Shown here piece after piece: positions 1,382 to 50,849 of a DNA stretch of 64,000 nucleotides. The notes under the pieces are model-generated. The model was given only the letters and a program-made list of their open reading frames with translations, was not told where the DNA came from and made no database searches. Made by a program: the position numbers and the translations under genes. The DNA is from Candidatus Poribacteria bacterium (GTDB lineage Bacteria; Poribacteria; WGA-4E; WGA-3G): contig OZ251518.1 of assembly GCA_965242965.1 (NCBI GenBank), positions 1,696,001-1,760,000 on the forward strand. Reading direction: 5' to 3'. Position 1 is the stretch's first letter. Each line of letters opens with the position of its first letter.

Positions 1382-1399
1382 TTTTTCTCCTAATAAAGC

Positions 1400-1679
1400 G
1401 AGGGTGTTTCCTAAATCGCTCAACGTCGCGGGGGACAGGCCCCCGCGCTACGGTGAAAAAAACGCCTCTCCTTCACGTAGGGCGAGGGCCCTCGGATGCC
1501 ACACGCGCATCCGAGCGGGTTCCCCTCGCCATGCGTTTGGCTGGCAGACTGCATCACCTTTGTAGGTCAGGATCGCCTGATCCTGACCCGTTCGGGAGCA
1601 GGTGCTCCCGAACTACAGAGGCGGGCATCGCTCGTATTGAGACCGGGAGGGCGCGCCAACGGAGTTATGAAATACCCTC
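1400..1679. mobile_element. MITE-like element copy 1 carrying GTAG hairpin cargo
   Basis: Ends GAGGGTGTTTCCTAA and TTATGAAATACCCTC; flanks AATAAAGC (1392-1399) and AATAAAGT (1680-1687). Confidence 0.8.
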
Positions 1680-1685
1680 AATAAA

Positions 1686-1745
1686 GTAGGGGAGCCATCC
1701 CTGTCTCGGTTTTCAACATGTCGGGACAAGGATGTCCCTCCTACC
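1686..1745. repeat. Inverted pair of GTAG hairpins (GTAGGAGGGACATCCTTGTCCCGA family)
   Basis: GTAGGGGAGCCATCCCTGTCTCGG...TCGGGACAAGGATGTCCCTCCTAC. Confidence 0.65.
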
Positions 1746-1767
1746 GAAGAGGAGGTTGCGCGCCTAT

Positions 1768-2646: not shown

Positions 2647-2680
2647 GGCACAACAGAAGAAATGCTGAACCTATACAAAA

Positions 2681-3328
2681 TCAACGAATACTGCCGTCTC
2701 TCAGTTCAATGATTCGCTTATTGCATTTTTGCGCGAGCTGTTTGTCGTTCGTTGCGACGAAGATAGTCATGCCTTGGAAGTTCAGGGCATCCAAGAGTGT
2801 CATCATCTCAAGCGAGAGACGTGCGTCTAAATCCCCTGTCGGCGCATCGGCGAGCAGTAACAGCGGCCGGTTGATAACGGCGCGCGCGATAGCCAGCCGC
2901 TGCCGTTCGTTACCGGATATGTCTGCAGGACGCGCGTCTTTGTGGTGTGCAAGCCCCATCTGATGGAGGAGTTTGTTGACATTTTCTCGCAGCGTCGCCG
3001 GCTTCGCGCCTATCAGTTTCTGCGGAAGGGCCAGATTTTGCTGAACGGTTTTGTGCGGCACAAACTTGAAGTCCTGAAAAACAAGCCCGATTTTCTGACG
3101 AAAATACGGAAGACTCAGCCGCGTCAATTCCGACAGTTGTTGCCCGAGAACGCTCATGTCACCGGACATCGGCATCAAATCTCGATATAACAGCCGGAGT
3201 AACGTTGTCTTCCCGGCACCACTCGGGCCGACGAGAAAGGCGAACTCGCCGCGTTCTACGCGAAAACTCACCTTCTCAAGCACACTGAGCTCACCATAAC
3301 TGAAACTGACTTGGTGGACTTGAATCAT
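2681..3328 (-). CDS. ftsE: FtsE-like ABC ATP-binding protein with degenerate catalytic motifs
   Basis: Walker A GPSGAGKTT, IGLVFQDFK, LPYFRQKIG typical of FtsE. Confidence 0.8.
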   Translation of the reverse strand: MIQVHQVSFSYGELSVLEKVSFRVERGEFAFLVGPSGAGKTTLLRLLYRDLMPMSGDMSVLGQQLSELTRLSLPYFRQKIGLVFQDFKFVPHKTVQQNLALPQKLIGAKPATLRENVNKLLHQMGLAHHKDARPADISGNERQRLAIARAVINRPLLLLADAPTGDLDARLSLEMMTLLDALNFQGMTIFVATNDKQLAQKCNKRIIELRDGSIR

Positions 3329-3362
3329 TTTCCCTCTGGCATTACGCAGAATGTTTCAGGCA

Positions 3363-3386: not shown

Positions 3387-3410
3387 CGGAGCGGTGTTGC
3401 ATGCCTGCTC

Positions 3411-6543: not shown

Positions 6544-6561
6544 ATTTTTATCAATTATACT

Positions 6562-6796
6562 GAGGGTGTTTCATATATCAATACCTTACGATAAAAAACG
6601 CTATCCCTTACCGTAGGGCGAGGGCCTGTCCCTCGCCAGCGTCCGCGCGCCAGGCCTGTAAGTCAAGATCGCCTAATCTTGACCCGTTTGTGATCAGGCG
6701 ATCACAAACTACAGACAGGGAAACACACATCAGGACGATGGACAACGCGGGGACAGACCCCCGCCCTACGGGAAAATCGAGATATGAAACACCCTC
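6562..6796. mobile_element. MITE-like element copy 2
   Basis: Perfect TIR GAGGGTGTTTCATAT/ATATGAAACACCCTC; exact 9-bp duplication AATTATACT (6553-6561, 6797-6805). Confidence 0.9.
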
Positions 6797-6797
6797 A

Positions 6798-6827
6798 ATT
6801 ATACTCTTCGGTGTGAGAATTTGTCAA
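6798..6827 (-). promoter_or_regulatory. Sigma70-like promoter for accD-topA
   Basis: TTGACA-18-TATAAT on the minus strand. Confidence 0.7.
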
Positions 6828-12383: not shown

Positions 12384-12480
12384 ATCTTTCTCCTTTGCAA
12401 ACATTTCTGTTAACATTGCATTATACCACAAATTTAAGGCGATTGCAAATTTTGACAGACTCCCCGCTCAATGTCTTCCC

Positions 12481-12724
12481 TGTAGGAGGGACATCCTTGT
12501 CCCGATTACGGTATTGCATCGAGACCGGGAGGTCTCCCCTACGCGTCTGGGTAGGAGGGACATCCTTGTCCCGATTACGGTATTGCATCGAGACCGGGAG
12601 GTCTCCCCTACGCGTCTGGGTAGGAGGGACATCCTTGTCCCGATTTGGCTATTGCATCGAGACCGGGAGGTCTCTCCTACGGTGGCATCGCTTGTATTGA
12701 GACACCGATTTATGAAACACCCTC
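12481..12724. repeat. Three tandem 69-bp hairpin doublets followed by a lone right TIR
   Basis: Unit GTAGGAGGGACATCCTTGTCCCGAT..ATCGAGACCGGGAGGTCTCCCCTAC at 12482, 12551, 12620; GATTTATGAAACACCCTC ends at 12724. Confidence 0.9.
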
Positions 12725-17863: not shown

Positions 17864-17962
17864 ATGGGACATCCTTGTCCCGATGTGGATAGGCCATTGA
17901 GATCGGGAGAGATAGAAAATTGAGACCAGGAGGTCTCTCCTACCGGGCCCGAACAGTTAACA

Positions 17963-18260
17963 CAGGGTGTTTCATAAATCGCCTAACGTCGCGGGGGACA
18001 GGCCCCCGCGCTACGACGAAAAAAACGCTGCCCCTTCACGTAGGGCGAGGGCCCTCGGATGCCACACGCGCATCCGAGCGGGTTTCCCTCGCCATGCGGT
18101 TGGCTAGCAAACTGCATAACCCTTGTAGGTCAGGATCGCCTGATCCTGACCCGTTCGGGATCAGGCGATCCCGAACTACAGAGGTGGGCCCAATGCCATC
18201 CGGTATTCGCCCTCCCTCCAAGGCTGGATAAATACCGAAACAGAGTTATGAAACACCCTC
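17963..18260. mobile_element. MITE-like element copy 3
   Basis: CAGGGTGTTTCATAAATC...GAGTTATGAAACACCCTC; exact 8-bp duplication AGTTAACA (17955-17962, 18261-18268). Confidence 0.9.
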
Positions 18261-18283
18261 AGTTAACAAAGAGGAAAACAGCC

Positions 18284-33148: not shown

Positions 33149-34153
33149 ATGTTGAGTCGCGTGGCAGAATCAATTTATTGGATGAGCCGTTATATTGAAC
33201 GTGCAGAAAACGTCGCAAGATTTGTTGATGTCAATCTGCATCTGATGCTGGATTTGCCGGTGGGGATGCAGACGCAGTGGAGACCGCTCGTCGCAACGAC
33301 AGGCGACGACGACGTGTTCGCTGAGCGATACGGCGACGCATCCCAAGAGACAGTGATTCGGTTCCTGACGTTTGACAGGAAGAACCCGAATTCGATCATC
33401 TCGTGTTTGCGGGCGGCGCGAGAGAACGCCCGCTCTATCCGAGAAAATATCTCATCGGAAATGTGGGAGCAGCTCAACGTCGCCTATTTGACAGTAACCG
33501 AGACGACGGAAGAGTGGGCAAGGACTGAACCGCACGAATTTTTCGGCGAAATCAAACGTGCCTCGCAACTGTTTATGGGGCTAACCGATAACAGCATGTC
33601 TCACAGCGAGGGATGGCATTTCTGTCGGTTGGGACGGTTGATTGAACGTGCCGACAAGACTTCACGCATCGTCGATGTGAAATACTTTATTCTCCTGCCA
33701 TCTGTCTGGCATGTGGATACCCCGTTTGACGATATTCAGTGGGGCGCGCTGTTGCATTCGGCAAGTGCTTTTGAGATGTATCGACGGACGCATGGGCTAA
33801 TCGCGCCAAAACAAGTCGTGGCGTTTTTGTTGCTGGACCGGGAGTTTCCGCGTTCGGTGCTTTATTGCCTGTCAAAGGCAGAGGAATCCCTCCATGCCAT
33901 CTCGGGCACGCCGTTGGAGACATTCTCGAATTCGGCGGAGCAGCGATTGGGACAGCTGCGTTCGGAGTTCGCTTATGCGCAGGTGAAGCAGGTGCTTTCA
34001 ACTGGTTTGCATGAGTTTTTGGATGCATTTCAGACGAAGTTGAATCTGGTAGGAGAGGATGTGCATAAGACGTTTTTCGCGTTGCGGCCGGTGGATGAGA
34101 ATGGAATGGAAAACAGGAGGATGGGCCAGAGCCAGGTCTTCGGCCTACGATGA
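33149..34153 (+). CDS. Alpha-E domain protein
   Basis: MLSRVAESIYWMSRYIERAEN, ARENAR, GRLIERADKTSR, FPRS. Confidence 0.95.
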   Translation: MLSRVAESIYWMSRYIERAENVARFVDVNLHLMLDLPVGMQTQWRPLVATTGDDDVFAERYGDASQETVIRFLTFDRKNPNSIISCLRAARENARSIRENISSEMWEQLNVAYLTVTETTEEWARTEPHEFFGEIKRASQLFMGLTDNSMSHSEGWHFCRLGRLIERADKTSRIVDVKYFILLPSVWHVDTPFDDIQWGALLHSASAFEMYRRTHGLIAPKQVVAFLLLDREFPRSVLYCLSKAEESLHAISGTPLETFSNSAEQRLGQLRSEFAYAQVKQVLSTGLHEFLDAFQTKLNLVGEDVHKTFFALRPVDENGMENRRMGQSQVFGLR

Positions 34154-34157
34154 GATT

Positions 34158-34350
34158 GGCGAGGGACAGGCCCTCTGTCTCTGTAGGGCAGGATCGCCTG
34201 ATCCTGCGAGGGATCTCCTACGGTGGCGAGGGACAGGCCCTCGCCCTACGTGAAGGGGCAGCGTTTTTTTCATCGTAGCGCGGGGCCCCTCGGATGCCAC
34301 ACGCGCATCCGAGCGGGTTTCCCCCGCGATGTTGGGCGATTTATGAAATT
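34158..34350. repeat. GTAG hairpin array ending in a partial TIR
   Basis: Hairpins, then GCGATTTATGAAA. Confidence 0.8.
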
Positions 34351-38128: not shown

Positions 38129-39003
38129 AGCGTCCCATCGTGGTTTGCGCTCATGAACTCCCCGGCTTCGGTGAAGGCTAAGGCGCGGATAGCACTTTCC
38201 TGTGCCGGGAGTTTGGACACCGCGATGTTAGCACGTTCGTGCACGGCATCAGTGCCTCGCGTTTCGGATAAGCTGGGCAGGCCCCATAGCCGGAGCTGCC
38301 TGTCTTTCCCGCCGGAGGCGAGGTGTGTGCAGTCTTGTGAGAATGCCACCGCATGCACCGAATCAGCGTGCGAGAGGAGTGTGGCAAAGAGCTCATAACT
38401 TTCCATGTCCCACAGCCGAACGGTGGTATCGGAGCTGCTGCTGGCGAGGCGTTTGCCATCAGCGGAAAATGCCAAGGCTAAGACGAGCCCATCATGTGCG
38501 GCGAGAGTGTGAAGACGATACCCGGTATCCAGATTCCATAACCGAATTCTGCCATCGGTGCTGCCGCTGGCAAGTATGCTTTCTGCGGCGAACGCCAAGG
38601 AGCGGACGCGCCCGGGGGATTCCGTAAACGTCGGCAAAACTTCGTCCCAGGCGGGGATAGGCATTCCATCGGGGGCGGCTGCGCTGGCCGCAAGCATCGC
38701 GGAATGTCCTGCGAGAAGCGCGATTTCGCGGGCTGTCTCGGTGTCCCAAAGCCATAGTGTGTTATCGTCACAGCCGCTAACCAGCCTTCGGTTATCAGGG
38801 GCGAAGGCAAGGGCACGGATGCGCGCGGTATGCCCAGGGAGCATGGCGAATTGCGCGCCGGTGTCCAAACGGTAAATCCAGATGCGTCCCTCGCCACCGG
38901 CGGCGATTTTGGTGCCATCAAGTGAAAAGGCGAGCGCGGTGACTTGGTTCTGGCTGAGGCGGGATTGCAGTCCCGCTGGAAGTTGTGAGTGGATGCAGTT
39001 CAT
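38110..39003 (-). CDS. WD40 repeat protein
   Basis: GHTARIRALAFAPD..LWLWD, ASGSTDGRIRLWN, SSDTTVRLWD. Confidence 0.9.
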   Translation of the reverse strand: MNCIHSQLPAGLQSRLSQNQVTALAFSLDGTKIAAGGEGRIWIYRLDTGAQFAMLPGHTARIRALAFAPDNRRLVSGCDDNTLWLWDTETAREIALLAGHSAMLAASAAAPDGMPIPAWDEVLPTFTESPGRVRSLAFAAESILASGSTDGRIRLWNLDTGYRLHTLAAHDGLVLALAFSADGKRLASSSSDTTVRLWDMESYELFATLLSHADSVHAVAFSQDCTHLASGGKDRQLRLWGLPSLSETRGTDAVHERANIAVSKLPAQESAIRALAFTEAGEFMSANHDGTLYFWKP

Positions 39004-39045
39004 GAAAATATCGCTCCTAGAACAATTTGAACAACTTGCGAACGA

Positions 39046-40068
39046 CTAAAGATTCCAATCCAAAACGACCCCGGTGTAAACGTTCGGTTCGTTGAGGAGG
39101 CCGTCATAGGCGTGCTTGATTTGTTCGGGTTTGAGGCGGTGCGAGATGAGCGGTTCGACGTGCAACTGCCCGCGCGCCATCCAGTCGAAAATAGTCTGCT
39201 GCTTGCTCCATTGTGAAGTGCGGTTACCGATATCGGGATACATCGGCACGCACCACTCCAACGCACCGCGGATGGTAATCCATCGCAAGTGAGTGTCGGA
39301 GAGCAGCTCGGTGAGGTTACCGTGGACAGCGACGCGCGGTGAACCGAGGATAATAAGTTGCCCGTGACTGGCGGTGGCGCGGAGTGCTTGCATCACAACG
39401 CCGCTATGCCCGACAGCATCGATGGTAATGTTGCCGAGTTCGCCGTTGGTGAGTTCCTGCAGTTGTGCCTGCGCTTCGTCTGCGGTGCCTCCGACGGTGT
39501 GTTCAATGCCGCACCGTTCCGCGAGCTCGCGCCGCTCCGCGACCGGATCTACGCCGATAACGCGGCATCCGTGTATCTGGAACATCTGCGCGGCGAGGTT
39601 ACCGACAAGCCCCATTCCAAACACAATGACGGTGGCGTTCGTCGGGATTTCGGCGACGATGATGGCAGTCATCGCAACGCCTGCCATGCGCGATGCGGCG
39701 ACAACGTCAGGTTCTACCGCCTGCGTGATGGGCGCGATGAGCCTGTCTTGAGAGTAACGGATAGTCGATGCGTGTCGTCCGTATGTGAAGACGCGCGCGC
39801 CGGGTTGGGTTCGCGTTACGTTCGCGCCGACTTCGCGCACGATGCCGACGTTGGCGTAGCCGGAACGCCACGGATAGGCGCACCACGCACCTTTCTCGAA
39901 AACTTTCGGCTCTCGCCCGGTGTAGTTGGCGAGTTCGGTGCCGCTGCTGATGAAGGTGTATTCAGTGTCAATGAGCACTTCGTTGGCAGAAAGTGCGGGG
40001 ACATCAAGTTCGGCGGTTTGGAGTTCCACCTGATTTTGCCCAGTGACGACGACTTCTCGGATTGTCAT
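39046..40068 (-). CDS. Zinc-binding alcohol dehydrogenase (MDR) family
   Basis: ISSGTE, GYANVG, VFGMGLVG, IDAVG. Confidence 0.88.
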   Translation of the reverse strand: MTIREVVVTGQNQVELQTAELDVPALSANEVLIDTEYTFISSGTELANYTGREPKVFEKGAWCAYPWRSGYANVGIVREVGANVTRTQPGARVFTYGRHASTIRYSQDRLIAPITQAVEPDVVAASRMAGVAMTAIIVAEIPTNATVIVFGMGLVGNLAAQMFQIHGCRVIGVDPVAERRELAERCGIEHTVGGTADEAQAQLQELTNGELGNITIDAVGHSGVVMQALRATASHGQLIILGSPRVAVHGNLTELLSDTHLRWITIRGALEWCVPMYPDIGNRTSQWSKQQTIFDWMARGQLHVEPLISHRLKPEQIKHAYDGLLNEPNVYTGVVLDWNL

Positions 40069-40388
40069 GAGGTATTTCCTTCTCCTAGTTCTTTCTTTTT
40101 AATCTCGCGGATGAGTGCCTGCATCCGTTTATATCTGACAAGGCCGACGAAAAATGTGGCGATGCCGAGTAAAATGAAAATCACGCCGATAGTTTCAACG
40201 ACAGGCGAACTGAAAATTTTGAGATGCACGAAGGATAATCCCGCGACGAACAGCGTCAGCGCGGTTCGGATGTAAGCCAGAAACGTCCGTTCGTTTGCGA
40301 GGATTGTCCGGTCTGCGGCGAGATGATCTCGCAGGATAAGCCGGTCTTCCAGTCCATGGTATGGGGCTGGTTTTTCTTGCATAGGCAT
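40065..40388 (-). CDS. DUF202 membrane protein
   Basis: LRDHLAADRTILANERTFLAYIRT. Confidence 0.9.
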   Translation of the reverse strand: MPMQEKPAPYHGLEDRLILRDHLAADRTILANERTFLAYIRTALTLFVAGLSFVHLKIFSSPVVETIGVIFILLGIATFFVGLVRYKRMQALIREIKKKELGEGNTS

Positions 40389-40428
40389 GCTTTTTCCTTT
40401 CTGAAAGTGATCGATAATGAATTATTAT

Positions 40429-41224
40429 GACGGTGTTTCATAACTCGCTCAACGTCGCGGGGACAGGCCCCGCGCTCCGGTGAAAAAACGCGGCCCTTTC
40501 ACGTAGGGCGAGGGCCCTCGGATGCCACACGCGCATCCGAGCGGGTTTCCCACGCCATGCGTTTGGCTGGCAGACTTCCTCACCCCTGTAGGTCAGGATC
40601 GCCTGATCCTGACTCGTTCGGGATCAGGCGATCCCGAACTACAGAATAGGTGGCGCGCGAAGAAAAACGCCTCCCTTTACCGTAGGGCGAGGGCCTGTCC
40701 CTCGCCAGCGTCCGCGCACTCCAACGATCGCGGGGGACAGGCCCCCGCGCTACGGTGAAAAAAACGTCTCTTCAGGTCCGTAGGACCTGAATGTCTATAG
40801 CACGTAGGGCCTGCGAAGAGATTTAAGGTCCTTTAGGTCCTTAATATCCTTTGACGCGCCGCATGTTTTCCTATTAAGGTCCTACGGACCTTGACATGGG
40901 CGGATACCTTTTTCTATAGACATGTAGGTCCTAAAGGACCTAAGACGATGCATCCGAAAAAAACGCCTTCCTTTCATCGTAGGGCGAGGGCCTGTCCCTC
41001 GTCATCGCTCGCGCGCCAGGCTCTGTAGGGCAGGATCGTCTGAAGCTCTGGCATCTTGGTTTCCAAGCGATCCTGACCTGTTTGTGATCAGGCGATCACA
41101 AACTACAGAAGCGGAAACACACATCGTGACGATAGAGCTCGCGGGGGACAGGCCCCCGCGCTACGGGAACATCGAGACCAGAGGTCTCTCCTACCGGGAA
41201 GAAATCGAAATATGAAACCCCTTC
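40429..41224. mobile_element. MITE-like element copy 4 (largest copy with a target duplication)
   Basis: GACGGTGTTTCATAA...TATGAAACCCCTTC; exact 9-bp duplication AATTATTAT (40420-40428, 41225-41233). Confidence 0.85.
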
Positions 41225-41413
41225 AATTATTATAGCATATTTTGGGGTTTAATTGCCGAAAAAAAACGCGGGAGCAGAGATATTCCGGCCGGTTTTCACG
41301 TTTTCTTGACATCAATTGGTTTTTTGTGTTAAACTATCCTGCATAGTTTCATATCGGCAGGAAGTTTGTTCCTACCGATGATACCAGAGAAAAACAATGG
41401 AGTAAACACTTTG

Positions 41414-42010
41414 ATGAATATCAAGCAACAACTTGATGCCAAAATCGCAGATTACAATTTACTGAACCACCCGTTCTATGAAGCGTGGAGTGCCGGCGAA
41501 TTGCCAGTCGCATCGCTGCAGCACTACGCGCGTGAATACGGTGCTTTCATCGCCACCCTGCCGAAGGGATGGGAAACACTCAACGATGCCGAAACCGCCG
41601 AGGAGGAGACAGAACACATCGATATGTGGGCTGACTTCGCCGATGGCCTGGACACCGCTGTCTCCGAGGCACAGATTCCGCAGGTGAAAGCGTTGCTGCA
41701 GACAGCGGACGCACTCTTCGCTGAGCCGGCTACGGCATTGGGTGCGCTCTACGCGTTTGAAGCGCAGCAACCTGCCACTGCGCAGTCCAAACTTGCCGGG
41801 TTGAAGGAGTTCTATCGGCTTCCCGAAAAGGTGGAGCCGTATTTTGAGACGCATTCGCATAACGAGCACGAAGCGGAGAAACTGCTGGACCAGATCGGCG
41901 CGTTACCGGCGGACGCTCAGGCATCCGTGGTGCAGGCGTGCGAGCAGATGAGCGGTGCTTTGTGGAACGCGCTCACCGGAATTCACGATGCAGCAGACCA
42001 CGGCGCATGA
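41414..42010 (+). CDS. TenA/PqqC/CADD-like heme-oxygenase-fold diiron protein
   Basis: LLNHPFYEAWSAGEL, EEETEH, GALYAFEAQ, YFETH. Confidence 0.8.
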   Translation: MNIKQQLDAKIADYNLLNHPFYEAWSAGELPVASLQHYAREYGAFIATLPKGWETLNDAETAEEETEHIDMWADFADGLDTAVSEAQIPQVKALLQTADALFAEPATALGALYAFEAQQPATAQSKLAGLKEFYRLPEKVEPYFETHSHNEHEAEKLLDQIGALPADAQASVVQACEQMSGALWNALTGIHDAADHGA

Positions 42011-42383
42011 TGCGGTGACAGCCTATTTTGGCGCGCTCGTCGCGAGAGATGCTGAAACCCTCATCGCGCTGATGCATCCCGTTTCGCACTACGTGAAAAT
42101 CGGCACGGATGCCGATGAGATTCTCACGGGCGGCGCGGAGATCGCGGCGTATTACGAAAACCACGTCGCCAGCACCGAGGATTTCAGCATCACCTTTCTC
42201 AGCCTAGATGTGCAGGCACGGGCCGAGGTGGCGTGGTTTTATGCGCGACAAATCTGGCGGCTTCGGTGGCAAGGAAACCCGATGGAAGAGTTTGTCATGC
42301 GGATGACAGGTGTTTTGGAAAGGGTTGATACGGCGTGGAAGTTTGTCCAAATCCATGCTTCAATCGGCGTGCCGACGACGTAA
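41988..42383 (+). CDS. SnoaL/NTF2-like protein
   Basis: KIGTDADE, RMTGVLER..WKFVQIHAS. Confidence 0.85.
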   Translation: MQQTTAHDAVTAYFGALVARDAETLIALMHPVSHYVKIGTDADEILTGGAEIAAYYENHVASTEDFSITFLSLDVQARAEVAWFYARQIWRLRWQGNPMEEFVMRMTGVLERVDTAWKFVQIHASIGVPTT

Positions 42384-42396
42384 GTGGAGAAGCACC

Positions 42397-43089
42397 GTGA
42401 AAATTTCAGCTGTCTCTTTTGACGCTGACATGACGTTGTGGGACTTCCAGAAAGTCATGCGGCATTCCCTAAAACAGACATTGATAGAACTCCGCCGACA
42501 TGTCCAGACACAACATGCCCGCGCTTTAACCGTTGAAGCGATGATAGGCATTCGTGAACGCGTCGCCGACGAAGTGAAGGGTGAAATCTGGAACCTGGAG
42601 CACATCAGACGACTCGCATTTGAGCGGACGCTTGAACATGTCGGGCACCCGGACAAAGCACTCGCCGCGCATCTCAACGCGATATATCTGAAGCACCGTT
42701 TTGAGGATATTATCTTGTATCCGGATGTTTTGCCAACACTTGATGCTTTGGCACCGCATGTCGCGCTAGGCATACTGTCGAACGGAAACACTTATCCGGA
42801 ACGCTGCGGACTTGAACGACGTTTTGAATTCGTCGTCTTTGCCCAAGATGTAGGCGTTGAGAAGCCCGACCGGCGTATCTTTGAAATTACTGCCCGGAAG
42901 GCAGGATATCCATTAACGGCGTTATTACACGTCGGAGATTCACTAGAAAGTGATGTGGCAGGTGCACGGGCAGCGGGCGCGTATGCTATCTGGCTGAATC
43001 GCGAAGGAATGCCGAACAACACCGATATCCGTGCGGATTATGAAATCGCTTCGTTGGACGAAATTCCAGCAATTTTGGGCGTATTGTAG
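42397..43089 (+). CDS. HAD-superfamily hydrolase
   Basis: FDADMTL, LSNG, KPD, HVGDSLESDV. Confidence 0.92.
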   Translation: MKISAVSFDADMTLWDFQKVMRHSLKQTLIELRRHVQTQHARALTVEAMIGIRERVADEVKGEIWNLEHIRRLAFERTLEHVGHPDKALAAHLNAIYLKHRFEDIILYPDVLPTLDALAPHVALGILSNGNTYPERCGLERRFEFVVFAQDVGVEKPDRRIFEITARKAGYPLTALLHVGDSLESDVAGARAAGAYAIWLNREGMPNNTDIRADYEIASLDEIPAILGVL

Positions 43090-43213
43090 GGGTGGAGGTG
43101 GCAATTCGCCCTTACAGTTCATCCAAGAATTGGAGTCTTCTTGGAAAACAGAAGCAAAAAAGTTGATATTTGAAGGTTCACTATGCTATAATAGTGTCTG
43201 TGGAGAATTAATC

Positions 43214-43727
43214 GAGGGTGTTTCATAACTCCGTGTCGGAGAGCTCTCCCGGTCTCGATGCAAGCGGTATCCCTTTCATCGTAGGGCGAGGGCCTGTCCC
43301 TCGCCATCGTTCATGCACGTGCACCCCAACGCTCGCGGTGGCCTGTCCCCCGCGATGGCTCAAGAACCGTTTTTTTTATCGTAGCGCGGGGGCCCTCGGA
43401 TGCCATACGCGCATCCGAGCGGGTTTCCCCCGCGTTGTCCATCGTCACGATGTGTGCTTCCCCTCTGTAGTTTGTGATCGCCTGATCACAAACAGGTCAG
43501 ATCAGGCGATCCTGACCTACAGGGGAGGATGCGATCTGACAGTAAGACGCATGGCGAGGGACAGGCCCTCGCCCTACGGTGCAAGCGGCAATCAAGCATG
43601 ACGAGGGAAACCCTCTCGGATGCGCGTGTGGCATGCGAGGGCCCAAGCCCTACGTGAAGGGAAGGCGTTTTTTCACCGTAGCGCGGGGCCTGTCCCCGCG
43701 ACGTTGAACGAATTATGAAACACTCTC
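43214..43727. mobile_element. MITE-like element copy 5 (opposite orientation)
   Basis: GAGGGTGTTTCATAA...TTATGAAACACTCTC; flanks AATTAATC / AATTAAGC. Confidence 0.85.
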
Positions 43728-43771
43728 AATTAAGCCCAAACACGCCCAGGAGAAATGAGGTATCTCAATTA

Positions 43772-44206
43772 ATGACTACTAAAAAGAAAAATTCTGTTGA
43801 AACTGCGGTTCTCGCAGATAGCGCGACGCAGCCGGTGCGCGAGTATCCGGAAGAGGCATATTGCTTTAGTGCAGAGGAATTGGAGCAGTCCCCGGATTCG
43901 GAGCAGGTTAAAGCACCCTCTCCTGCCAAACGGACTCGGACGGAGGAACCGCGCATCCGTGTCAGGAAGCCGGATTACACGCTGGCAGACCTTTTGGCGC
44001 AGTTACCTAAGTCGGAAACACCCGAGTCAAACGCGGGTGCTAAGGGTTGCGCGACGCAGCCGGTGCGCGAGTATCCGGAAGAGGCGTATGACTTTGAGTT
44101 TGAGGACCCGGGCTATACGCTGGAAGACCTCTTGGCGCAAGTCACAGAAGATAATCGGCACGAAGTGGTTGACTTCGGGCCGCCGGTGGGCAAAGAGGTA
44201 TGGTAA
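43772..44206 (+). CDS. Atypical MazE-like antitoxin with internal duplication
   Basis: C-terminus YTLEDLLAQVTEDNRHEVVDFGPPVGKEVW; overlaps the toxin start. Confidence 0.7.
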   Translation: MTTKKKNSVETAVLADSATQPVREYPEEAYCFSAEELEQSPDSEQVKAPSPAKRTRTEEPRIRVRKPDYTLADLLAQLPKSETPESNAGAKGCATQPVREYPEEAYDFEFEDPGYTLEDLLAQVTEDNRHEVVDFGPPVGKEVW

Positions 44207-44559
44207 GAACAACCGATTACTTCCCGTGGCGCGGCGATGTAGTGTGGGTCGACTTGGAACCACACAGAGGCTCGGAACAAGCCGGCCATCGTCCCGCTGT
44301 TGTAGTCTCGCGAAGCGAATATAACCGAGATATGGATTTAGCGGTCATCTGTCCAATTACGTCGCGAGGGAAAGGCTATCCGTTTGAGGTGCCTATTCCT
44401 CGCGGTTTAGCAGTGAGGGGCGTTGTCCTCGCCGATCAGGTGCGATGCGTCGCTTGGAAAGAGCGAGATGCAGCGTTTGTCTGTCAGATGCCGCCTGATA
44501 CGTTGAAAGAGGTTTTGCAAAAAATTAGGCAGCTCTTGAGAATTCCGCTGGCACCTTAG
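44200..44559 (+). CDS. mazF: MazF/PemK endoribonuclease toxin
   Basis: RGDVVWVDLEP..GSEQAGHRPAVVVS, CPITS..KGYPFEV, LADQVR. Confidence 0.93.
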   Translation: MVRTTDYFPWRGDVVWVDLEPHRGSEQAGHRPAVVVSRSEYNRDMDLAVICPITSRGKGYPFEVPIPRGLAVRGVVLADQVRCVAWKERDAAFVCQMPPDTLKEVLQKIRQLLRIPLAP

Positions 44560-44572
44560 CACGTGGCGTAGC

Positions 44573-45478
44573 ATGAACAGCACTCCAAACCAGCATATCC
44601 ACAATATCACGCGGCTGAAGGAAACACGCATCGCGCTGATTGACAGCGATGAGCCAGGGGCATTCCAGAAACTCCTCCGAAACTATTGGCACTGGCACTT
44701 CAACGATGCACTCCGCGATGCGGCACGGTTGCTGTTAACTACCGAACTTGGCTGGGAGCAGATACCGCAAACCTTGATACCACCGGTTGGCGAACTCGTC
44801 TCGCCGTTGGGATACGCGCTGGCGCATTCGGATAAACAGGTTCGCGATGCCGCACTGCAGGTGCTGGATGCAACCGTTTGTATACCCGCAGGCACTGCGC
44901 TTATCGGCGAGGACTGCGCGCCGTTGGAAGTTGACGCTTATGAGATGAGCGTCTATCCTGTCACGAACGCGCAATATCAACGGTTTGTGGTGGACACCGG
45001 ACGCGAACCACCACAGGATTGGATAGATGGAAACTACCCTCAAAATCGGGGAGACCACCCTGTCGTCTGGGTTACCTGCGAAGATGCCGAAGCGTATGCG
45101 GACTACATCGGCGGCAGATTACCAACGTTTCCCGAATGGCAATACGCCGCACGCGGTGCCGACGATAGGCTTTTCCCGTGGGGATATAACATTGACACAC
45201 CGCGATGCAATACCGCTGAACTCGGTGCAGATGGCACTACCCCAGTCGGCACTTTTCGCGGCGGCGCGAGCCCTTTCGGTTGTTACGATATGGTGGGCAA
45301 TGTTTGGGAGTGGACCGGCACGTCTTATGACGATGCGGGCAATTTCCAGGTCGCGTGCGGCGGCGCGTGGTATTACAATCATGACTACAGTACCTGCACG
45401 AGTTACGATTTTTTTAGCAACGGGTATGCCGAATTCATCATCGGATGCCGAGTCGCGTGTGATATAGAGGGGCAGTGA
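44573..45478 (+). CDS. FGE-sulfatase (SUMF1-like) domain protein
   Basis: YPVTNAQY, HPVVWV, RLPTFPEW, YDMVGNVWEW. Confidence 0.9.
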   Translation: MNSTPNQHIHNITRLKETRIALIDSDEPGAFQKLLRNYWHWHFNDALRDAARLLLTTELGWEQIPQTLIPPVGELVSPLGYALAHSDKQVRDAALQVLDATVCIPAGTALIGEDCAPLEVDAYEMSVYPVTNAQYQRFVVDTGREPPQDWIDGNYPQNRGDHPVVWVTCEDAEAYADYIGGRLPTFPEWQYAARGADDRLFPWGYNIDTPRCNTAELGADGTTPVGTFRGGASPFGCYDMVGNVWEWTGTSYDDAGNFQVACGGAWYYNHDYSTCTSYDFFSNGYAEFIIGCRVACDIEGQ

Positions 45479-45483
45479 TATAG

Positions 45484-46023
45484 ATGGGCAGTGATATGGA
45501 TAAGCCAGATGAGAACCGCGCCTTAACGCCAAGCGATACGTCAGCGGCTTCCGAGAGCCAGGGACAGGCAACCCACGTTCAGCGCGGGCGCGTTGACATT
45601 CACACTTACCAAACTGTCGCGAAGCACTTAGAGCAAGGTGCAACGGCGTTAAAAGCGCGGCAATATCCGCAGGCGATTGCGGCATTTGAGACAGTGTTGC
45701 AACACAACGGCGAATCCGCAGAGGCGCATTTCCATATCGGCTTGGCGCGTTTTATGCTCGGTGATTATGAGCAGGCACTTGAGGCGTATAAAAAGGCGAT
45801 TGCGTGTGAACCGAAGGAAGCGGCGGCGCATCTCAATCTCGCTGCTACCTATCGCTTGCTGAAACGCTACGATGAAGCGGTTGAGGTGTATCAGCGCGCT
45901 ATCCATTTTATTCCGAATCATGCCGAGTTGCATTCGGAGCTCGGTGCCGTTTACACGTTCCAAGGCAAGCGTCGCGAGGCGGTGGCCGCGTATAAAACTG
46001 CCTTGCGGCTCAAACTCAAATAG
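45484..46023 (+). CDS. TPR repeat protein
   Basis: AEAHFHIG, AAHLNLA, AVEVYQRAI. Confidence 0.88.
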   Translation: MGSDMDKPDENRALTPSDTSAASESQGQATHVQRGRVDIHTYQTVAKHLEQGATALKARQYPQAIAAFETVLQHNGESAEAHFHIGLARFMLGDYEQALEAYKKAIACEPKEAAAHLNLAATYRLLKRYDEAVEVYQRAIHFIPNHAELHSELGAVYTFQGKRREAVAAYKTALRLKLK

Positions 46024-47299: not shown

Positions 47300-47625
47300 C
47301 GGTGAAAAAACGTCACCCTTCACCGTAGGACTTGGGCCCTCGCATGCCACACGCGCATGCGAGCGGGTTCCCCTCGCCATGCAGCGATCGCGGGGGACAG
47401 GCCCCCGCGCTACGATAAAAACGCCACCCCTCACCGTAGGGCGAGGGCCTGTCCCTCGCCATGCTGCGGTCTACCGAACCATGTTTCGGATTATCCAACG
47501 ATCGCGGGGGACAGGCCCCCGCGCTACGGTAAACAACGGCCTTCTTCCTCGCGGGGGACAGGCCCCCGCGCTACGGTAAACAACGGCCTTCTTCTTCGGA
47601 TCGCGAGGGCCTGTCCCTCGCGAAT
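47300..47625. repeat. GTAG hairpin array
   Basis: Includes a 50-bp tandem duplication CGCGGGGGACAGGCCCCCGCGCTACGGTAAACAACGGCCTTCTTC. Confidence 0.88.
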
Positions 47626-47641
47626 GTGTTGAAAAAAAACA

Positions 47642-49411
47642 ATGAAATCTGCAACGCGTCGCGCCTTGTTCAGCTCACTACTCCTTCATTTATTCCTTTT
47701 GGTAACAGCGTTCTACATCGCGGTGCAAAATGAGCCGCTGTCGCCGGTAGAAGGAAGCATTGCAGCCGAGTTGATACCAATGAACAAACCACTTCAACCG
47801 AAAGCACCGCTGAAAAAACACGTGCCCACTTTTCGCGAGCCGCTACGAGACACAGTGCCAGTCTCTGCCGCGAAAGTAGAATCCATTGCGCCGGCTGTCG
47901 GATTTCAACCGAATCTTGTTCCAACACGTCCTGTCGATACGACGCAGCCGCTTCTGAATCAAGTGCTTGTCTCACCGGAGGTAACACCGGATGTCAGCAC
48001 TGCTTCTCGTGCCTTACGAAGCGTTGCGCGCGAACTGCCGACGACTGAACCAACTGGCGTAACAGGGAGCAGCAGTTACGGGACAAAACGGAGCGGCGTG
48101 TTGCGCGTGCCGAAAGGTGGCTCCACGATGCTGAACGTCACAGCGACGACAGGCGATGGAGAATTCTTCGACTCCCCAGATAAACCGAAGGATCCGCCGG
48201 TTGTCAATCAGACGCAATTTCGGGAGGTGATGAAAGGGCTCGCGCAAGAAATCGTGGAGGCGAGCGGCGGCAGACCGGTTGATGTCGTTTTTGTCATCGA
48301 TGCAAGCGGTAGCATGGGCGATAATATCAAGGCTGTTGCGGAACATCTCATCACGATGATAGATGTTTACAACGCCGCCAACGTTGATTACGCGCTCGGT
48401 TTGACGCAATTCTGGATGAACCAAGACAGGGAGCGAAACATCATCAAAGTGTCTCAGTTGACGAGGAGTCTGGCAGACTACAAACGCACCATCCGCGGGA
48501 TAATCCCGCAACAAGATGAAAACGCGCTGGATGCCGTTGTGCAAACGGCGAAGGAACTCCGATTTCGGGCCACCTCCAAAAGGCATTTTATTCTCGTCAC
48601 CGACGAAACGTTCACGAGTTTAGAAAAATGGACGGTAGACGATGCCATCGCATACTGCCGTGAGTTCGGCATCGCTGTGAATGTGCTTGGCCTCCGCGAC
48701 GACGAACATCAGCAGTTGGCGGCGGAGACAGGTGGCAAGTGGCACCTCATTCCGCAAGACGCGCCGAAGCCGAAGCCGAAGGGCGTGCCCAAGCCGGCCG
48801 CGCCCGGATTCATTCGTTCCAAAACGCAGACGCTGCGCAACGCGCAATGGGCAAACGTTGGGAAAATCAGCGGTGCGTTGACAAAGCACGCCGCCGAACT
48901 TGGTGGGCAAACACCACTTGACGTTATCCTTTTTATTGACGGTAGCAAGAGCATGGAGGACAAGCTGCCACACTTTTTGGGGCAGCTTGAGCACCTCGTT
49001 CGAGAGTGGGATAACGCGCTGATTGACTACCAACTCGGCGTGGTGCGATTCCGGACGCGCGCCTCGGTGAATATGGTGAACGTTTTCAATCCACCGCAAA
49101 CGCTGGAGCAGGTGCGGAAGATCGCCGAATTGCCGTGCCAAGAGAATGAGATGTTACTCGATGCAGTAGCAGAAGGATTGCGCAGGCTGAAGCACCGGCC
49201 GGACGCGCAGTTGCATCTCATCTTGGTTACCGATGAACCTGCCAAGGGCAAATACTCGGCGGCAGCGACGATGCAACTCTTGCAGCAAAGACATGCGCGC
49301 GTCAGCGTTATCGGCACTTTTGACGATTTCCAACAGCAGGTAGCCGCGAAAACGGGCGGCGTGTGGGTGCCGATGCCGGAAGCGCATACGAAGAATAATG
49401 CGTATTGGTAG
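47642..49411 (+). CDS. Membrane-anchored protein with two vWA domains
   Basis: SLLLH TM anchor, VFVIDASGSM, LFIDGSKSM, LVTDE x2. Confidence 0.88.
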   Translation: MKSATRRALFSSLLLHLFLLVTAFYIAVQNEPLSPVEGSIAAELIPMNKPLQPKAPLKKHVPTFREPLRDTVPVSAAKVESIAPAVGFQPNLVPTRPVDTTQPLLNQVLVSPEVTPDVSTASRALRSVARELPTTEPTGVTGSSSYGTKRSGVLRVPKGGSTMLNVTATTGDGEFFDSPDKPKDPPVVNQTQFREVMKGLAQEIVEASGGRPVDVVFVIDASGSMGDNIKAVAEHLITMIDVYNAANVDYALGLTQFWMNQDRERNIIKVSQLTRSLADYKRTIRGIIPQQDENALDAVVQTAKELRFRATSKRHFILVTDETFTSLEKWTVDDAIAYCREFGIAVNVLGLRDDEHQQLAAETGGKWHLIPQDAPKPKPKGVPKPAAPGFIRSKTQTLRNAQWANVGKISGALTKHAAELGGQTPLDVILFIDGSKSMEDKLPHFLGQLEHLVREWDNALIDYQLGVVRFRTRASVNMVNVFNPPQTLEQVRKIAELPCQENEMLLDAVAEGLRRLKHRPDAQLHLILVTDEPAKGKYSAAATMQLLQQRHARVSVIGTFDDFQQQVAAKTGGVWVPMPEAHTKNNAYW

Positions 49412-50220
49412 AGGATTTTCATATATCCGATAGGCGCGGTTTCAAACAGAAAAGACCGTAGTTCGGGATCGCCTGATCCCGAACGGGTCAAGATCAGGCG
49501 ATCTTGACCTACAGGGGGATGCGGTCTGCCAGCCAAACGCATGGCGAGGGCCTGTCCCCCGCGCTACGGTATAGGGAAGGCGATTGGGCCCTCGGACGAT
49601 CGCGGGGGACAGGCCCCCGCGCTACGGTGAAAAAAACGCCGCCCCTTCACGTAGGGCGGGGGCCCTCGGATGCCACACGCGCATCCGAGCGGGTTCCCCC
49701 CGCCATGCTGCGGTCTCCCGAAACCTCGCGAGGGACAGGCCCTCGCGCTACGGTATCGGGAAGGCGATTGGGCCCTCGGCCGATCGCGAGGGACAGGCCC
49801 TCGCGCTACGGTGAAAAAACGTCGCCCCTTCATCGTAGGGCGAGGGACAGGCCCCCGCCATGCTGCGGTCTACCGAAACCTCGCGAGGGACAGGCCCTCG
49901 CACTACGAAATCGGGAAGGTGCTTGGGCCCTCGGACGCTCGCGAGGGACAGGCCCTCGCGCGACGGTATCGGGAAGGTGCTTGGGCCCTCGGACGCTCGC
50001 GAGGGACAGGCCCTCGCGCGACGGTAAAAAACGGCGTGCGTTACCGTAGGGCGGGGGCCTGTCCCCCGCCATGCTGTGGTCTCCCGAGAACTCGCGAGGG
50101 ACAGGCCCTCGCGCTACGGTATCGGGAAGGCGATTGGGCCATCGCGCTACGGAGTAAGGGGACGCATCGAGACCGGGAGGTCTCTCCTATCGGGAAGGTA
50201 TTGATATATGAAACACCCTC
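49411..50220. mobile_element. MITE-like element copy 6 (left end decayed, no target duplication)
   Basis: Right 26 bp are the exact reverse complement of the left end of copy 2; left end GAGGATTTTCATATATC. Confidence 0.65.
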
Positions 50221-50849
50221 AATCTATAAAGGAACAGAAATTGAAGATAGCCGTCCTCGTCTCAGGGAGCGGGACTAACCTGCAAACCCTGATAGAGCAA
50301 CTCCATCAAGAACCGGACAGCGGCATCGACATCGCTGTCGTCATCAGCGAACGGCAGAGTGCCTACGCGCTCACCCGCGCCAAAAATGCAGGCATCCCGA
50401 CGCGCGTTGTCAAAACCCAAGATTTTAAGAACCGCGTCGATTTTGACGCGGCAATTTCACGTGAAATCGAGCAGGCAGGCGCAGAATTAATAGTCCTCGC
50501 GGGTTTCATGAAAATCTTTCAACCGCCTTTTGTCCGCAAATATCGGAATCGTATCCTCAACGTGCATCCGACGCTGCTGCCTGCTTTTCCGGGCGCGCAC
50601 CCTGTCGCCGATACGTTGGCATACGGCGTGAAGGTCGCGGGAGTTACTGTGCATTTCGTTGATGAGGGTGTTGACTCCGGTCCGATTATCGCACAGAGGG
50701 CGGTGCCCGTGTTGGATACAGACGATGAGGAGAGCCTGCACGCGCGCATCCAAGTTGAAGAGCATCAACTCTATCCGCAGGTAATTAAGTGGTACGCGCA
50801 GGGACAATTGAAAATTGAGGGGCGAAAAGTCATCGTCACAGCCCAATAA
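50208..50849 (+). CDS. purN: Phosphoribosylglycinamide formyltransferase
   Basis: IAVLVSGSGTNLQ, LAGFM, NVHPTLLP, HFVDEGVDSGPII. Start is either ATG 50208 in the TIR or TTG 50241. Confidence 0.96.
   Translation: MKHPQSIKEQKLKIAVLVSGSGTNLQTLIEQLHQEPDSGIDIAVVISERQSAYALTRAKNAGIPTRVVKTQDFKNRVDFDAAISREIEQAGAELIVLAGFMKIFQPPFVRKYRNRILNVHPTLLPAFPGAHPVADTLAYGVKVAGVTVHFVDEGVDSGPIIAQRAVPVLDTDDEESLHARIQVEEHQLYPQVIKWYAQGQLKIEGRKVIVTAQ

What the first reader, a model, noticed from the sequence alone, without database searches (positions are those of the whole stretch)
1392..50229. MITE-like shell with TIRs and 8-9 bp target duplications that packages variable REP-hairpin cargo
Seen: five complete elements (1400-1679, 6562-6796, 17963-18260, 40429-41224, 43214-43727) share the terminal inverted repeat GAGGGTGTTTCATA..TATGAAACACCCTC. 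Their flanking direct repeats are AATAAAGC/AATAAAGT, AATTATACT x2, AGTTAACA x2, AATTATTAT x2 and AATTAATC/AATTAAGC. Partial copies lie at 12707-12724, 34338-34348, 49411-50220 and 63790. Interiors (235-796 bp) are different combinations of GTAG hairpin modules. Known: TIR plus 8-9 bp duplication indicates DDE transposition (IS256/IS4-like), whereas GTAG REPs are substrates of HUH RAYT transposases, which do not make such duplications. Inference: a two-tier element in which a DDE-mobilised shell disperses, and is remodelled by, HUH-type hairpins. I do not know of this combination being described.
Basis: partly seen in the sequence, partly recalled or inferred. Interest (0 to 1): 0.88.

Follow-up and report, generated by a model that had tools for sequence, protein, structure and literature searches.

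The report
IS-derived MITE carrying REP hairpin modules
A sponge-symbiont (Poribacteria-type) genome holds hundreds of copies of a small transposon relic whose interior is built from a second kind of mobile hairpin repeat, so one class of selfish DNA has been copied around the genome inside another.

Summary
The 14-bp inverted repeat occurs 12 times in the window (0.2 expected) and 1026 times in the 5.7-Mb genome. There are 300 end-to-end pairs of at most 1.2 kb, and 144 of them carry 8- or 9-bp target duplications (control 1.9%) at a palindromic A-TTAA-T site. Same-genus genomes have empty sites with a single target copy. The repeat is the terminus of a 1.1-kb insertion sequence encoding a 332-aa DDE transposase (Pfam DDE_Tnp_1_3; IS982/IS5-like, not IS256). 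Intact copies with 8-9-bp duplications occur in other Poribacteria. This genome keeps only a decayed remnant, so its MITEs are orphaned fossils (about 86% pairwise identity).

The interiors are GTAG REPs. The genome has about 9000 REP modules and one RAYT gene flanked by its own REPs. A 266-bp master element (TIR-a-B-C-d-TIR, with MITE-specific linkers) was copied at least 64 times, so REPs were co-mobilised by the DDE enzyme. Copies then diverged by whole-REP insertions.

Two-thirds of REP modules are not linked to the repeat, and RAYT-driven remodelling is unproven. Verdict: a new variant of known kinds. I found no prior description of the combination.

The parts
1392..1687 (.). MITE copy 1 (1400-1679, 280 bp) with flanking 8-bp repeats at 1392-1399 and 1680-1687 (1 mismatch). 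Cargo is a-B(+nested hairpin)-C-d plus an E-like end.
   Evidence: No TIR at the orthologous site in G001 or G002.
6553..6805 (.). MITE copy 2 (6562-6796, 235 bp) with an exact 9-bp target duplication, AATTATACT.
   Evidence: Empty site with a single target copy in G001 and G002.
17955..18268 (.). MITE copy 3 (17963-18260, 298 bp) with an exact 8-bp duplication, AGTTAACA. It belongs to a 13-copy same-cargo family.
   Evidence: G002 has one copy of the site region and no TIR.
40420..41233 (.). MITE copy 4 (40429-41224, 796 bp, enlarged by extra REP modules) with an exact 9-bp duplication, AATTATTAT.
   Evidence: Precise empty sites in G001 and G002. Contigs of other runs cross both junctions.
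43206..43735 (.). MITE copy 5 (43214-43727, 514 bp) with an 8-bp repeat (1 mismatch). It is inserted between a promoter-like TTGAAG..TATAAT and the next start codon.
   Evidence: Absent at the orthologous site in G002.
49411..50220 (.). An 810-bp element with a degenerate left TIR (one base missing, one changed), an exact right TIR and an array of a/k-B REP doublets. No matching flank repeat.
   Evidence: Absent in G001 and G002.
12480..12724 (.). Solo right end (TIR 12711-12724) attached to three F-e REP doublets. The left TIR is missing.
   Evidence: Absent in G001 and G002.
34140..34348 (.). REP cluster ending in a truncated right terminus that lacks the last bases of the TIR.
63790..64000 (.). 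Left end of a further element (degenerate TIR, then type-0 subterminal sequence, then a-B-C-j) that runs off the window.

Best explanation
These are copies of a non-autonomous transposon (MITE) derived from, and once moved in trans by, a 1.1-kb insertion sequence of Poribacteria.

How it moves. The IS encodes a 332-aa DDE transposase. I infer, from how DDE enzymes of this superfamily work, that it recognises the 14-17-bp terminal inverted repeat and inserts with an 8- or 9-bp staggered cut. The target is a palindromic AT-rich site (A-TTAA-T), mostly in promoter-side or other intergenic DNA.

What it carries. The MITE backbone is a 266-bp unit. It runs: TIR, 13-nt subterminal, REP A (inverted), spacer, REP B, linker, REPIN doublet C-d, 66-nt subterminal, TIR. 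Four GTAG REPs of the genome's REP/RAYT system are therefore built into it and were copied passively with every DDE transposition.

When it spread. The family burst to about 300 intact and about 400 solo or degenerate ends in this lineage after it split from its congeners.

What happened afterwards. Individual copies changed in place by gain or loss of whole REP units: a 29-bp hairpin nested in REP loops, extra a-B doublets, and E modules. This gave 226 architectures among 300 copies. The enzyme behind these changes is unresolved. RAYT, or recombination or slippage between REPs, would both fit.

Current state. The transposase gene has since decayed, so the copies are now fossils.

Shown versus inferred. 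Shown: TIR, TSD, target logo, empty sites, the IS partner, co-mobilised cargo, REP-unit indels, RAYT presence and transposase decay. Inferred: the catalytic details, trans-mobilisation, the order of events, and the cause of the REP indels.
For: Termini, duplications and target:
- TIR counts: 12 in the window against 0.2 expected; 1026 genome-wide.
- TSD: 144 of 300 against 1.9% in the control.
- The palindromic target shows in the flank logo: T 81% at -1, A 74% at -4, T 74% at -6.

The autonomous partner:
- G022 has 7 copies of a 1107-bp element bounded by exact TIRs.
- Its ORF matches DDE_Tnp_1_3 at 39.3 bits (cut-off 27) and DDE_Tnp_1 at 26.9 bits (cut-off 23).
- 75 of 79 related loci come from records titled Poribacteria.
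- 21 of 31 full-length IS copies have 8-bp (18) or 9-bp (3) duplications.
- The IS and the MITE share the first 17 bases.
- One MITE end type (42 ends) also resembles the IS subterminal GTTGTCAAAA region.

Own genome:
- It holds only a remnant: exact TIR plus transposase residues 1-37 and 192-243 at about 45% identity, with a stop.
- PF01609, PF13612, PF00872, PF12762 and PF01610 all gave no match.

Empty sites:
- No TIR (up to 3 mismatches) in any of the 13 orthologous stretches of G001/G002 that were fetched for 7 G000 insertions; for an eighth, element 2, both congeners show the empty site by alignment.
- A single target copy is visible for elements 2 and 4 in both genomes and for the 2.9-kb unit in G001.

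Co-mobilised cargo:
- Same-cargo clusters of 25, 13, 6, 4, 4 and 3 copies sit at different loci, each with its own TSD.
- 64 copies share a 266-bp consensus.
- The MITE-specific 66-nt subterminal segment has 92 hits, 89 of them within 400 bp of a TIR.

REP-unit remodelling:
- 40 of 64 copies carry insertions of at least 12 bp at recurrent sites that are REP loops or REP borders.
- Unique-cargo copies keep TSDs as often as family members, 112 of 231 against 32 of 69. This argues for change between intact ends rather than exchange between copies.

REP/RAYT system:
- 7081 GTAG+hairpin sites, against 480-1594 for control tetramers.
- The RAYT ORF scores 120.6 bits on NF047646 (cut-off 80) and is flanked by arrays of REP D.

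Age: identity to consensus has a median of 91.5%; pairwise identity is 85.6% with a maximum of 94%.

Not an assembly artefact: contigs of other runs cross flank-to-MITE junctions, and G001 holds a copy of the same MITE.
Against: - No intact cognate transposase is encoded in this genome or in the two congeners searched. Trans-mobilisation therefore rests on relatives from another genus.
- 156 of 300 pairs show no recognisable duplication, and 426 of 1026 ends are unpaired at my thresholds.
- Only 1452 of 8957 REP modules lie inside intact pairs, and 2976 of 8957 lie in TIR-linked clusters. Most REPs spread without this element.
- G001 is a fragmented assembly (86% complete, 210 contigs), so its low TIR count (5 exact) is a lower bound.
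- Family assignment of the transposase is weak. The best NCBIfam match is IS982 at 55 bits, against a cut-off of 130.
- Nothing here shows which enzyme makes the REP indels.
Confidence: 0.82

Rival explanations
1. The RAYT (HUH) enzyme actively inserts and excises REPs or REPINs inside the MITE, so interior variation is RAYT-catalysed. The DDE shell is a main dispersal vehicle of REPs.
For: - A RAYT gene is present with its cognate REP D arrays.
- REP D and its REPIN partners C and J are the families most often TIR-linked, at 43-51%.
- Insertions in MITE copies are whole REP units at recurrent sites.
- REP B is 4-12 times commoner here than in congeners: 1683 against 416 and 136.
Against: - No signature separates RAYT action from recombination or slippage.
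- The commonest 'insertions' (the nested 29-bp hairpin) define subfamilies that then transposed, so they represent few events.
- 67% of modules sit in TIR-free clusters.
- The two most abundant families, A and B, do not flank the RAYT.
Confidence: 0.3
2. Composite origin copy by copy. Independent insertions of two IS or MITE ends happened to flank pre-existing REP clusters, so most TIR pairs are not single transposed units.
For: - 156 of 300 pairs lack a flank repeat.
- Many solo ends sit beside REP clusters: 497 clusters have one TIR.
- Long pairs of 0.8-4 kb mostly lack matching flanks and enclose ordinary genes.
Against: - 144 of 300 pairs have TSDs spanning the whole unit, including 64 of 131 pairs longer than 400 bp.
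- End types pair non-randomly: (0,1) 64, (0,2) 31, (0,0) 3.
- There are same-cargo families and whole-unit empty sites.
Confidence: 0.08
3. The 14-bp repeat is a protein-binding or regulatory palindrome rather than a transposon end.
For: - It lies in AT-rich promoter-side DNA.
- It is very well conserved: 530 of 1026 hits are exact.
Against: - It bounds a transposase gene in relatives.
- It is flanked by target duplications.
- It is absent from orthologous sites in congeners.
Confidence: 0.01

Closest known systems
IS-derived bacterial MITEs (for example Nezha, RUP, Correia/NEMIS, MITEAba12; the names appear in passages of PMC3733652 and in the search listing)
   Same: - Short and non-coding, with 14-17-bp TIRs identical to those of an IS.
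- Target-site duplication, high copy number, intergenic position and empty sites in relatives.
- The parent IS has been lost from the genome.
   Different: - The interior is made of GTAG REP/REPIN modules of a RAYT system rather than IS-derived or anonymous sequence.
- Architectural diversity is extreme: 226 forms among 300 copies.
- Only 17 bp are shared with the IS in most copies.
REP/REPIN-RAYT systems and BIMEs (Nunvar 2010 PMC2817692 and Bertels & Rainey 2011 PMC3116915, both seen as abstracts in the search listing; Di Nocera 2013 PMC3733652, passages read)
   Same: - GTAG-headed GC-rich hairpins of about 25 nt.
- Inverted doublets, mosaic clusters and thousands of extragenic copies.
- A single RAYT gene flanked by its own REPs.
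   Different: - A sixth of the modules lie inside TIR-bounded units with 8-9-bp duplications, which HUH enzymes are not known to make (my own knowledge).
- About 10 REP families coexist with one RAYT.
IS982 / IS5 / IS4 group of DDE transposases (Pfam DDE_Tnp_1_3 and DDE_Tnp_1; NCBIfam IS982)
   Same: - A single ORF of about 330 aa in an element of about 1.1 kb.
- The DDE_Tnp_1_3 domain scores over its cut-off.
- Duplications fall within the 3-9-bp range that I recall for IS982 and the 8-9 bp that I recall for some IS5 subgroups.
   Different: - The score is below NCBIfam's IS982 cut-off (55 against 130 bits).
- The termini start with GAGGG, not the 'AC' ends that I recall for IS982.
- Sources name it only 'hypothetical protein'.
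Pneumococcal BOX elements (modular boxA-boxB(n)-boxC; PMC3049150 seen in the search listing only, details recalled)
   Same: Conserved ends with a variable number of internal modules.
   Different: BOX modules are not REP/RAYT substrates, and I recall no IS partner or 8-9-bp duplication for them.
Mobile insertion cassettes / transporter IS (TIR-bounded units carrying passenger genes without a transposase; recalled, no call)
   Same: The 2.9-kb TIR-bounded unit at G000:C1:54311-57212 carries an ankyrin/dockerin gene. It has an 8-bp duplication and a precise empty site in G001.
   Different: It is a single example here, and it also carries REP modules at both ends.

Membership tests
MITE (non-autonomous DDE element) | Terminal inverted repeats | tested here: met
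   14-bp TIR: 12 in the window against 0.2 expected; 1026 in the genome.
MITE (non-autonomous DDE element) | Target-site duplication of fixed length | tested here: met
   144 of 300 pairs with 8 bp (100) or 9 bp (44) at up to 1 mismatch; control 166 of 8963.
MITE (non-autonomous DDE element) | Small, with no transposase gene | tested here: met
   Median length is 389 bp. No transposase ORF was found in TIR pairs of 0.8-4 kb.
MITE (non-autonomous DDE element) | An autonomous IS with the same termini | tested here: met
   A 1106-1124-bp IS with the identical 17-bp ends and a DDE ORF occurs in relatives. Only a decayed remnant is in the own genome.
MITE (non-autonomous DDE element) | Empty sites with one target copy in related genomes | tested here: met
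   Elements 2 and 4 in G001 and G002, and the 2.9-kb unit in G001. No TIR in any of the 13 orthologous stretches fetched.
MITE (non-autonomous DDE element) | Mobilisation by the IS transposase | not testable with these tools
   Needs a transposition assay.
REP/REPIN-RAYT system | Short GC-rich palindromes headed by GTAG, in high copy and extragenic | tested here: met
   7081 GTAG+hairpin sites against 480-1594 for other tetramers. 8957 modules of 10 families.
REP/RAYT system | A RAYT gene flanked by its REPs | tested here: met
   NF047646 at 120.6 bits (cut-off 80). REP D arrays lie on both sides. PDB 4er8 TnpArep matches at E 1.6e-4.
REP/RAYT system | REPs in the MITE are cut or moved by the RAYT | not testable with these tools
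   Needs biochemistry. Only co-occurrence is shown.
IS982 family | Transposase reaches the NCBIfam IS982 cut-off | tested here: not met
   55.2 bits against a cut-off of 130. It is the best-scoring family, and Pfam DDE_Tnp_1_3 is over its cut-off.
   No PF00872 match in the own genome. PF00872 was not among the three families Pfam reported for the IS transposase at E<=0.01.

The most novel reading that the evidence does not exclude
Two mechanistically unrelated classes of non-autonomous DNA have fused into one nested replicator. RAYT-type REPs/REPINs hitch-hike inside a DDE-type MITE. A MITE burst therefore multiplies REPs far faster than RAYT does, and without needing RAYT.

This would explain a material part of the REP load of this lineage. 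A third of about 9000 modules are TIR-linked, and REP B is 4-12 times commoner than in congeners.

The REP modules in turn make the MITE interior a fast-evolving, recombining cassette. The same termini can also carry a host-interaction (ankyrin) gene.
Probability: 0.35. Interest if true: 0.7.

Novelty: new variant of a known kind. Interest (0 to 1): 0.55.

Why it matters
REPINs and MITEs are treated in the literature as separate classes with very different dynamics. A preprint I read in passages (10.1101/2021.07.10.451892) gives REPIN duplication as about 1e-8 per host replication and MITE duplication as about 1e-5.

Here at least 64 copies of one master element, each with four REPs, were made by a DDE enzyme. 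REP copy number can therefore rise by a route that bypasses RAYT. That matters for models that read REPIN population structure as RAYT-driven.

The case also documents three further things:
- An unnamed IS family is widespread in Poribacteria.
- This is one of the heaviest REP loads I know of: about 9000 modules, or about 4% of the genome.
- It is a natural example of a MITE family outliving its transposase.

The insertions sit between promoters and start codons, and one unit carries an ankyrin gene. The family may therefore have reshaped gene regulation and the eukaryote-like protein repertoire of a sponge symbiont. That last point is untested.

Tried and rejected
- Searching the own genome for a TIR-bounded transposase. 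Among TIR pairs of 0.8-4 kb, only three had matching flanks and none held a transposase.
- Self-megablast for IS-like repeats of at least 700 bp. It gave 71 regions. The four roughly 1.48-kb ones I inspected were duplicated genes, not IS (one search crashed on a script error and was rerun).
- Family searches of the own genome with PF01609, PF00872, PF12762, PF01610 and PF13612 gave no match.
- Rfam on the window gave no family at gathering score.
- Contig C2 against plasmids gave no match. The transposase against plasmids gave one weak partial hit, Spirosoma at 34%.
- A relaxed partner search for solo ends (3-5 mismatches) was uninformative: 414 inward against 412 outward.
- The fuzzy-regex module census timed out and was replaced by blastn-short.
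- Laying contigs of four runs on 38000-46000 listed no joint that skips exactly one MITE. Only the best-supported joints were shown (15 shown, 462 not), and contigs drop rare variants, so this says nothing about polymorphism.
- Gene-context test. MITEs are only mildly enriched between divergent genes (64 of 286 placed in intergenic regions, against 416 of 2661 intergenic regions). This used crude ORF calls, so I make no claim from it.
- Literature. Six full-text searches found no paper on REPs or MITEs in Poribacteria and none describing REPs as MITE cargo. The library lacks most subscription journals, and supplements were not consulted.


Full report
**1. Observation**

The 14-bp motif GAGGGTGTTTCATA occurs 12 times in the window at up to 2 mismatches. 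Dinucleotide shuffles give 0.20 on average and never more than 2. Reading the five stated elements confirms their coordinates, their inverted termini and the flanking direct repeats of 8 or 9 bp.

The four partial copies are also there:
- A solo right end at 12711-12724.
- A whole 810-bp element at 49411-50220 whose left terminus is degenerate.
- A truncated right end near 34338.
- A degenerate left end near 63790 that runs off the window.

**2. Genome-wide test**

The window is G000:C1:1696001-1760000 of a 5.70-Mb, two-contig genome with 54% G+C.
- The motif occurs 1026 times at up to 2 mismatches, 530 of them exact.
- Adjacent + then - hits within 4 kb give 322 pairs with a median length of 389 bp. 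65 have an exact 8-bp flank repeat and 27 an exact 9-bp one. With shuffled partners, 11 of 6415 do.
- For the 300 pairs of at most 1200 bp, 144 have an 8-bp (100) or 9-bp (44) repeat with at most one mismatch. The control is 166 of 8963.
- The outward flank of all 1026 ends has the consensus A-TTAA-T next to the terminus, which is a palindromic 8-bp target.

**3. The transposase**

In the own genome no TIR pair of 0.8-4 kb holds a transposase. Repeats of at least 700 bp are few. Pfam searches for DDE_Tnp_1, Transposase_mut, IS1595, ISL3 and DDE_Tnp_1_3 domains all find nothing.

A scan of 40 relatives for the exact motif gave these counts:

| Genome | Exact TIR hits |
|---|---|
| G000 (own) | 530 |
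| G001 (same genus) | 5 |
| G002 (same genus) | 1 |
| G022 (another genus of the same family) | 14 |

The 14 hits in G022 form seven pairs exactly 1107 bp apart. One such unit (L005) has an 8-bp duplication and a 332-aa ORF. The ORF matches DDE_Tnp_1_3 (39.3 bits, cut-off 27) and DDE_Tnp_1 (26.9 bits, cut-off 23). Its best NCBIfam model is IS982, at 55 bits, below the cut-off of 130.

A scan of species-representative genomes found 79 loci, 75 of them in records titled Candidatus or uncultured Poribacteria and 4 in Chloroflexota. From this I infer that the window's organism is a poribacterium. This fits the sponge-metagenome runs that hold the window.

Of 31 full-length IS copies examined (one locus is present twice), 21 have duplications: 18 of 8 bp and 3 of 9 bp. 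The first 17 bases of both ends are conserved. The IS thus has the same termini, the same duplication lengths and the same kind of target as the small elements. Sources call the protein only 'hypothetical protein'.

The own genome keeps a remnant at C1:2371347-2371746. It has an exact terminus, then transposase residues 1-37, a deletion, and residues 192-243 at about 45% identity with a stop. No intact copy was found in G000, G001 or G002.

**4. Empty sites**

The window is syntenic with G001 and G002 at 73-92% nucleotide identity across the aligned blocks.
- Element 2: both genomes have the flanks abutting around one copy of the target.
- Element 4: both have one copy, and the two G001 blocks overlap by exactly 9 bp.
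- Elements 1, 3 and 5, the 49411 element and the solo end at 12711: the orthologous intergenic DNA lacks any TIR-like match at up to 3 mismatches. The same holds for all 13 fetched stretches.
- In some places the congeners carry other REPs instead.

The insertions are therefore specific to the G000 lineage. G001 does hold at least one copy of the same MITE elsewhere, so the element predates the split, or moved between them.

**5. The hairpins**

GTAG followed by a stem of at least 7 bp occurs 7081 times. Seven control tetramers give 480-1594. A census of ten families by blastn-short finds 8957 modules in 2330 clusters.

The genome has two Y1-transposase matches:
- One is a broken IS200/IS605 TnpA next to a TnpB.
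- The other is a 154-aa ORF that scores 120.6 bits on the NCBIfam REP-associated tyrosine transposase model (cut-off 80). It matches the solved E. coli TnpArep and is flanked on both sides by arrays of one REP family, my 'D'.

So the REP/RAYT reading is sound. REP B is genus-specific: 1683 in G000, 416 in G001, 136 in G002, and 0-1 in the 22 other relatives searched.

**6. How the two relate**

The elements are not featureless shells.
- The ends fall into types that pair non-randomly: (0,1) 64, (0,2) 31, (0,0) 3.
- The 64 (0,1) copies align to a 266-bp consensus. It consists of TIR, short subterminal, REP A inverted, spacer, REP B, linker, REPIN doublet C-d, a 66-nt non-REP subterminal segment, and TIR.
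- That 66-nt segment has 92 genomic hits, 89 of them within 400 bp of a TIR. The B-C linker has 174 hits, 132 near a TIR.
- Near-full-length clustering gives families of 25, 13, 6, 4, 4 and 3 copies at different loci with their own duplications.

The REPs in the backbone were therefore copied by DDE transposition.

Variation is then layered on top.
- 40 of the 64 copies carry 63 insertions of at least 12 bp, concentrated at six positions.
- The commonest is a 29-bp hairpin nested in the loop of REP A (10 copies) or REP B (14 copies).
- The others are extra a-B doublets and E modules.
- Genome-wide, that 29-bp hairpin sits in a REP loop in a fixed orientation in at least 537 of 552 cases.
- Overall there are 226 module architectures among 300 pairs, and 231 pairs have no near-full-length sibling.
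- Unique copies keep duplications as often as family members: 112 of 231 against 32 of 69. Long copies do too: 64 of 131 above 400 bp.

This favours change between intact ends, or transposition of already changed copies, over exchange between copies.

**7. Limits of the hitch-hiking claim**

- Only 1452 of 8957 modules lie inside intact pairs.
- 2976 lie in clusters with at least one TIR nearby, and 5981 in TIR-free clusters.
- The TIR-linked share by family runs from 6% (H) to 51% (C). The RAYT-cognate D is at 43%.

Most REPs therefore spread by another route, and I cannot tell which enzyme makes the REP-unit indels.

**8. Age and activity**

Backbone identity to consensus has a median of 91.5%. 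Pairwise identity is 85.6% and no pair exceeds 94%. With the decayed transposase, this indicates an old, finished burst.

Contigs from other sponge-metagenome runs run from unique flank into elements 4 and 5. The insertions are therefore not artefacts of this assembly.

**9. Comparison and novelty**

Each half is a known kind: an IS-derived MITE and a REP/RAYT system. The combination is a MITE whose backbone is built of REPs and whose copies diversify by REP units.

I did not find this combination described in six full-text searches. Nor did I find it in the passages I read of Di Nocera 2013, Delihas 2011 and the Bertels preprint, which treat MITEs and REPs/REPINs as separate classes. Known links run the other way, with IS elements that target REPs (passage in PMC3184786).

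I rate it a new variant of known kinds, of moderate interest. The library lacks most subscription journals, and I saw no supplements.

Noticed in passing
G000:C1:54311-57212 (L003 311-3212); paralog at window 14279-15769: A 2.9-kb unit is bounded by the same TIRs and has an 8-bp duplication (ATTTAAGT). It carries a 588-aa ankyrin-repeat plus dockerin gene with REP modules at both ends. G001 has a precise empty site with one target copy. Its closest relative in G001 lies at the position syntenic with window 14279-15769, an ankyrin-repeat gene with the same Pfam domains. It looks like a mobile insertion cassette carrying a eukaryote-like protein gene.
   Followed up: partly
whole genome; e.g. 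window 49411-50220, 12480-12710: The REP load is extreme: 8957 modules of ten GTAG families in 2330 clusters, about 4% of the genome. Only one RAYT gene was found (G000:C1, about 3147499-3147963, in L002), and it is flanked only by family D. How about ten families persist with one RAYT is unexplained.
   Followed up: partly
e.g. window 18047-18096, 1480-1530, 49660-49705: A 29-bp hairpin without GTAG sits inside the loop of a GTAG REP (families A, B or a variant) in a fixed orientation in at least 537 of 552 genomic cases. It is either a REP-loop-specific mini-insertion or a compound REP type.
   Followed up: partly
window 1384-1766 against L099 (G001) and L100 (G002); window 49411-50220 against L110: Orthologous intergenic regions of congeners carry different REP families or none. 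G001 has arrays of a GGCGCGGTTTCC-type REP where G000 has the MITE, and G002 has 11 bp. REP content therefore turns over quickly between species of one genus.
   Followed up: no
G000:C1:2371347-2371746: A decayed remnant of the parent IS is present: an exact terminus, two transposase fragments, an internal deletion and a stop.
   Followed up: yes
L001 (G000:C1:3123891-3127127): An IS200/IS605-type element has a broken TnpA (two in-frame TGA) next to an intact-looking 408-aa TnpB.
   Followed up: no
window 43150-43790; L003 250-320: Several MITEs sit between a sigma-70-like promoter (TTGAAG or TTGACA, then TATAAT or TATCAT) and the start codon of the next gene. The hairpin-rich element would therefore be part of the 5' untranslated region.
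   Followed up: no
L024-L027 (one Poribacteria MAG): The right flank of one IS copy equals the left flank of another (for example AGACAATT, ACTTAATT). This suggests rearrangements by recombination between IS copies in that genome.
   Followed up: no
L008 209-495 (G001:C102): The G001 copy of the MITE is flanked by a 14-bp direct repeat with one mismatch, offset by one base from the right terminus, rather than by a plain 8-9-bp duplication.
   Followed up: no
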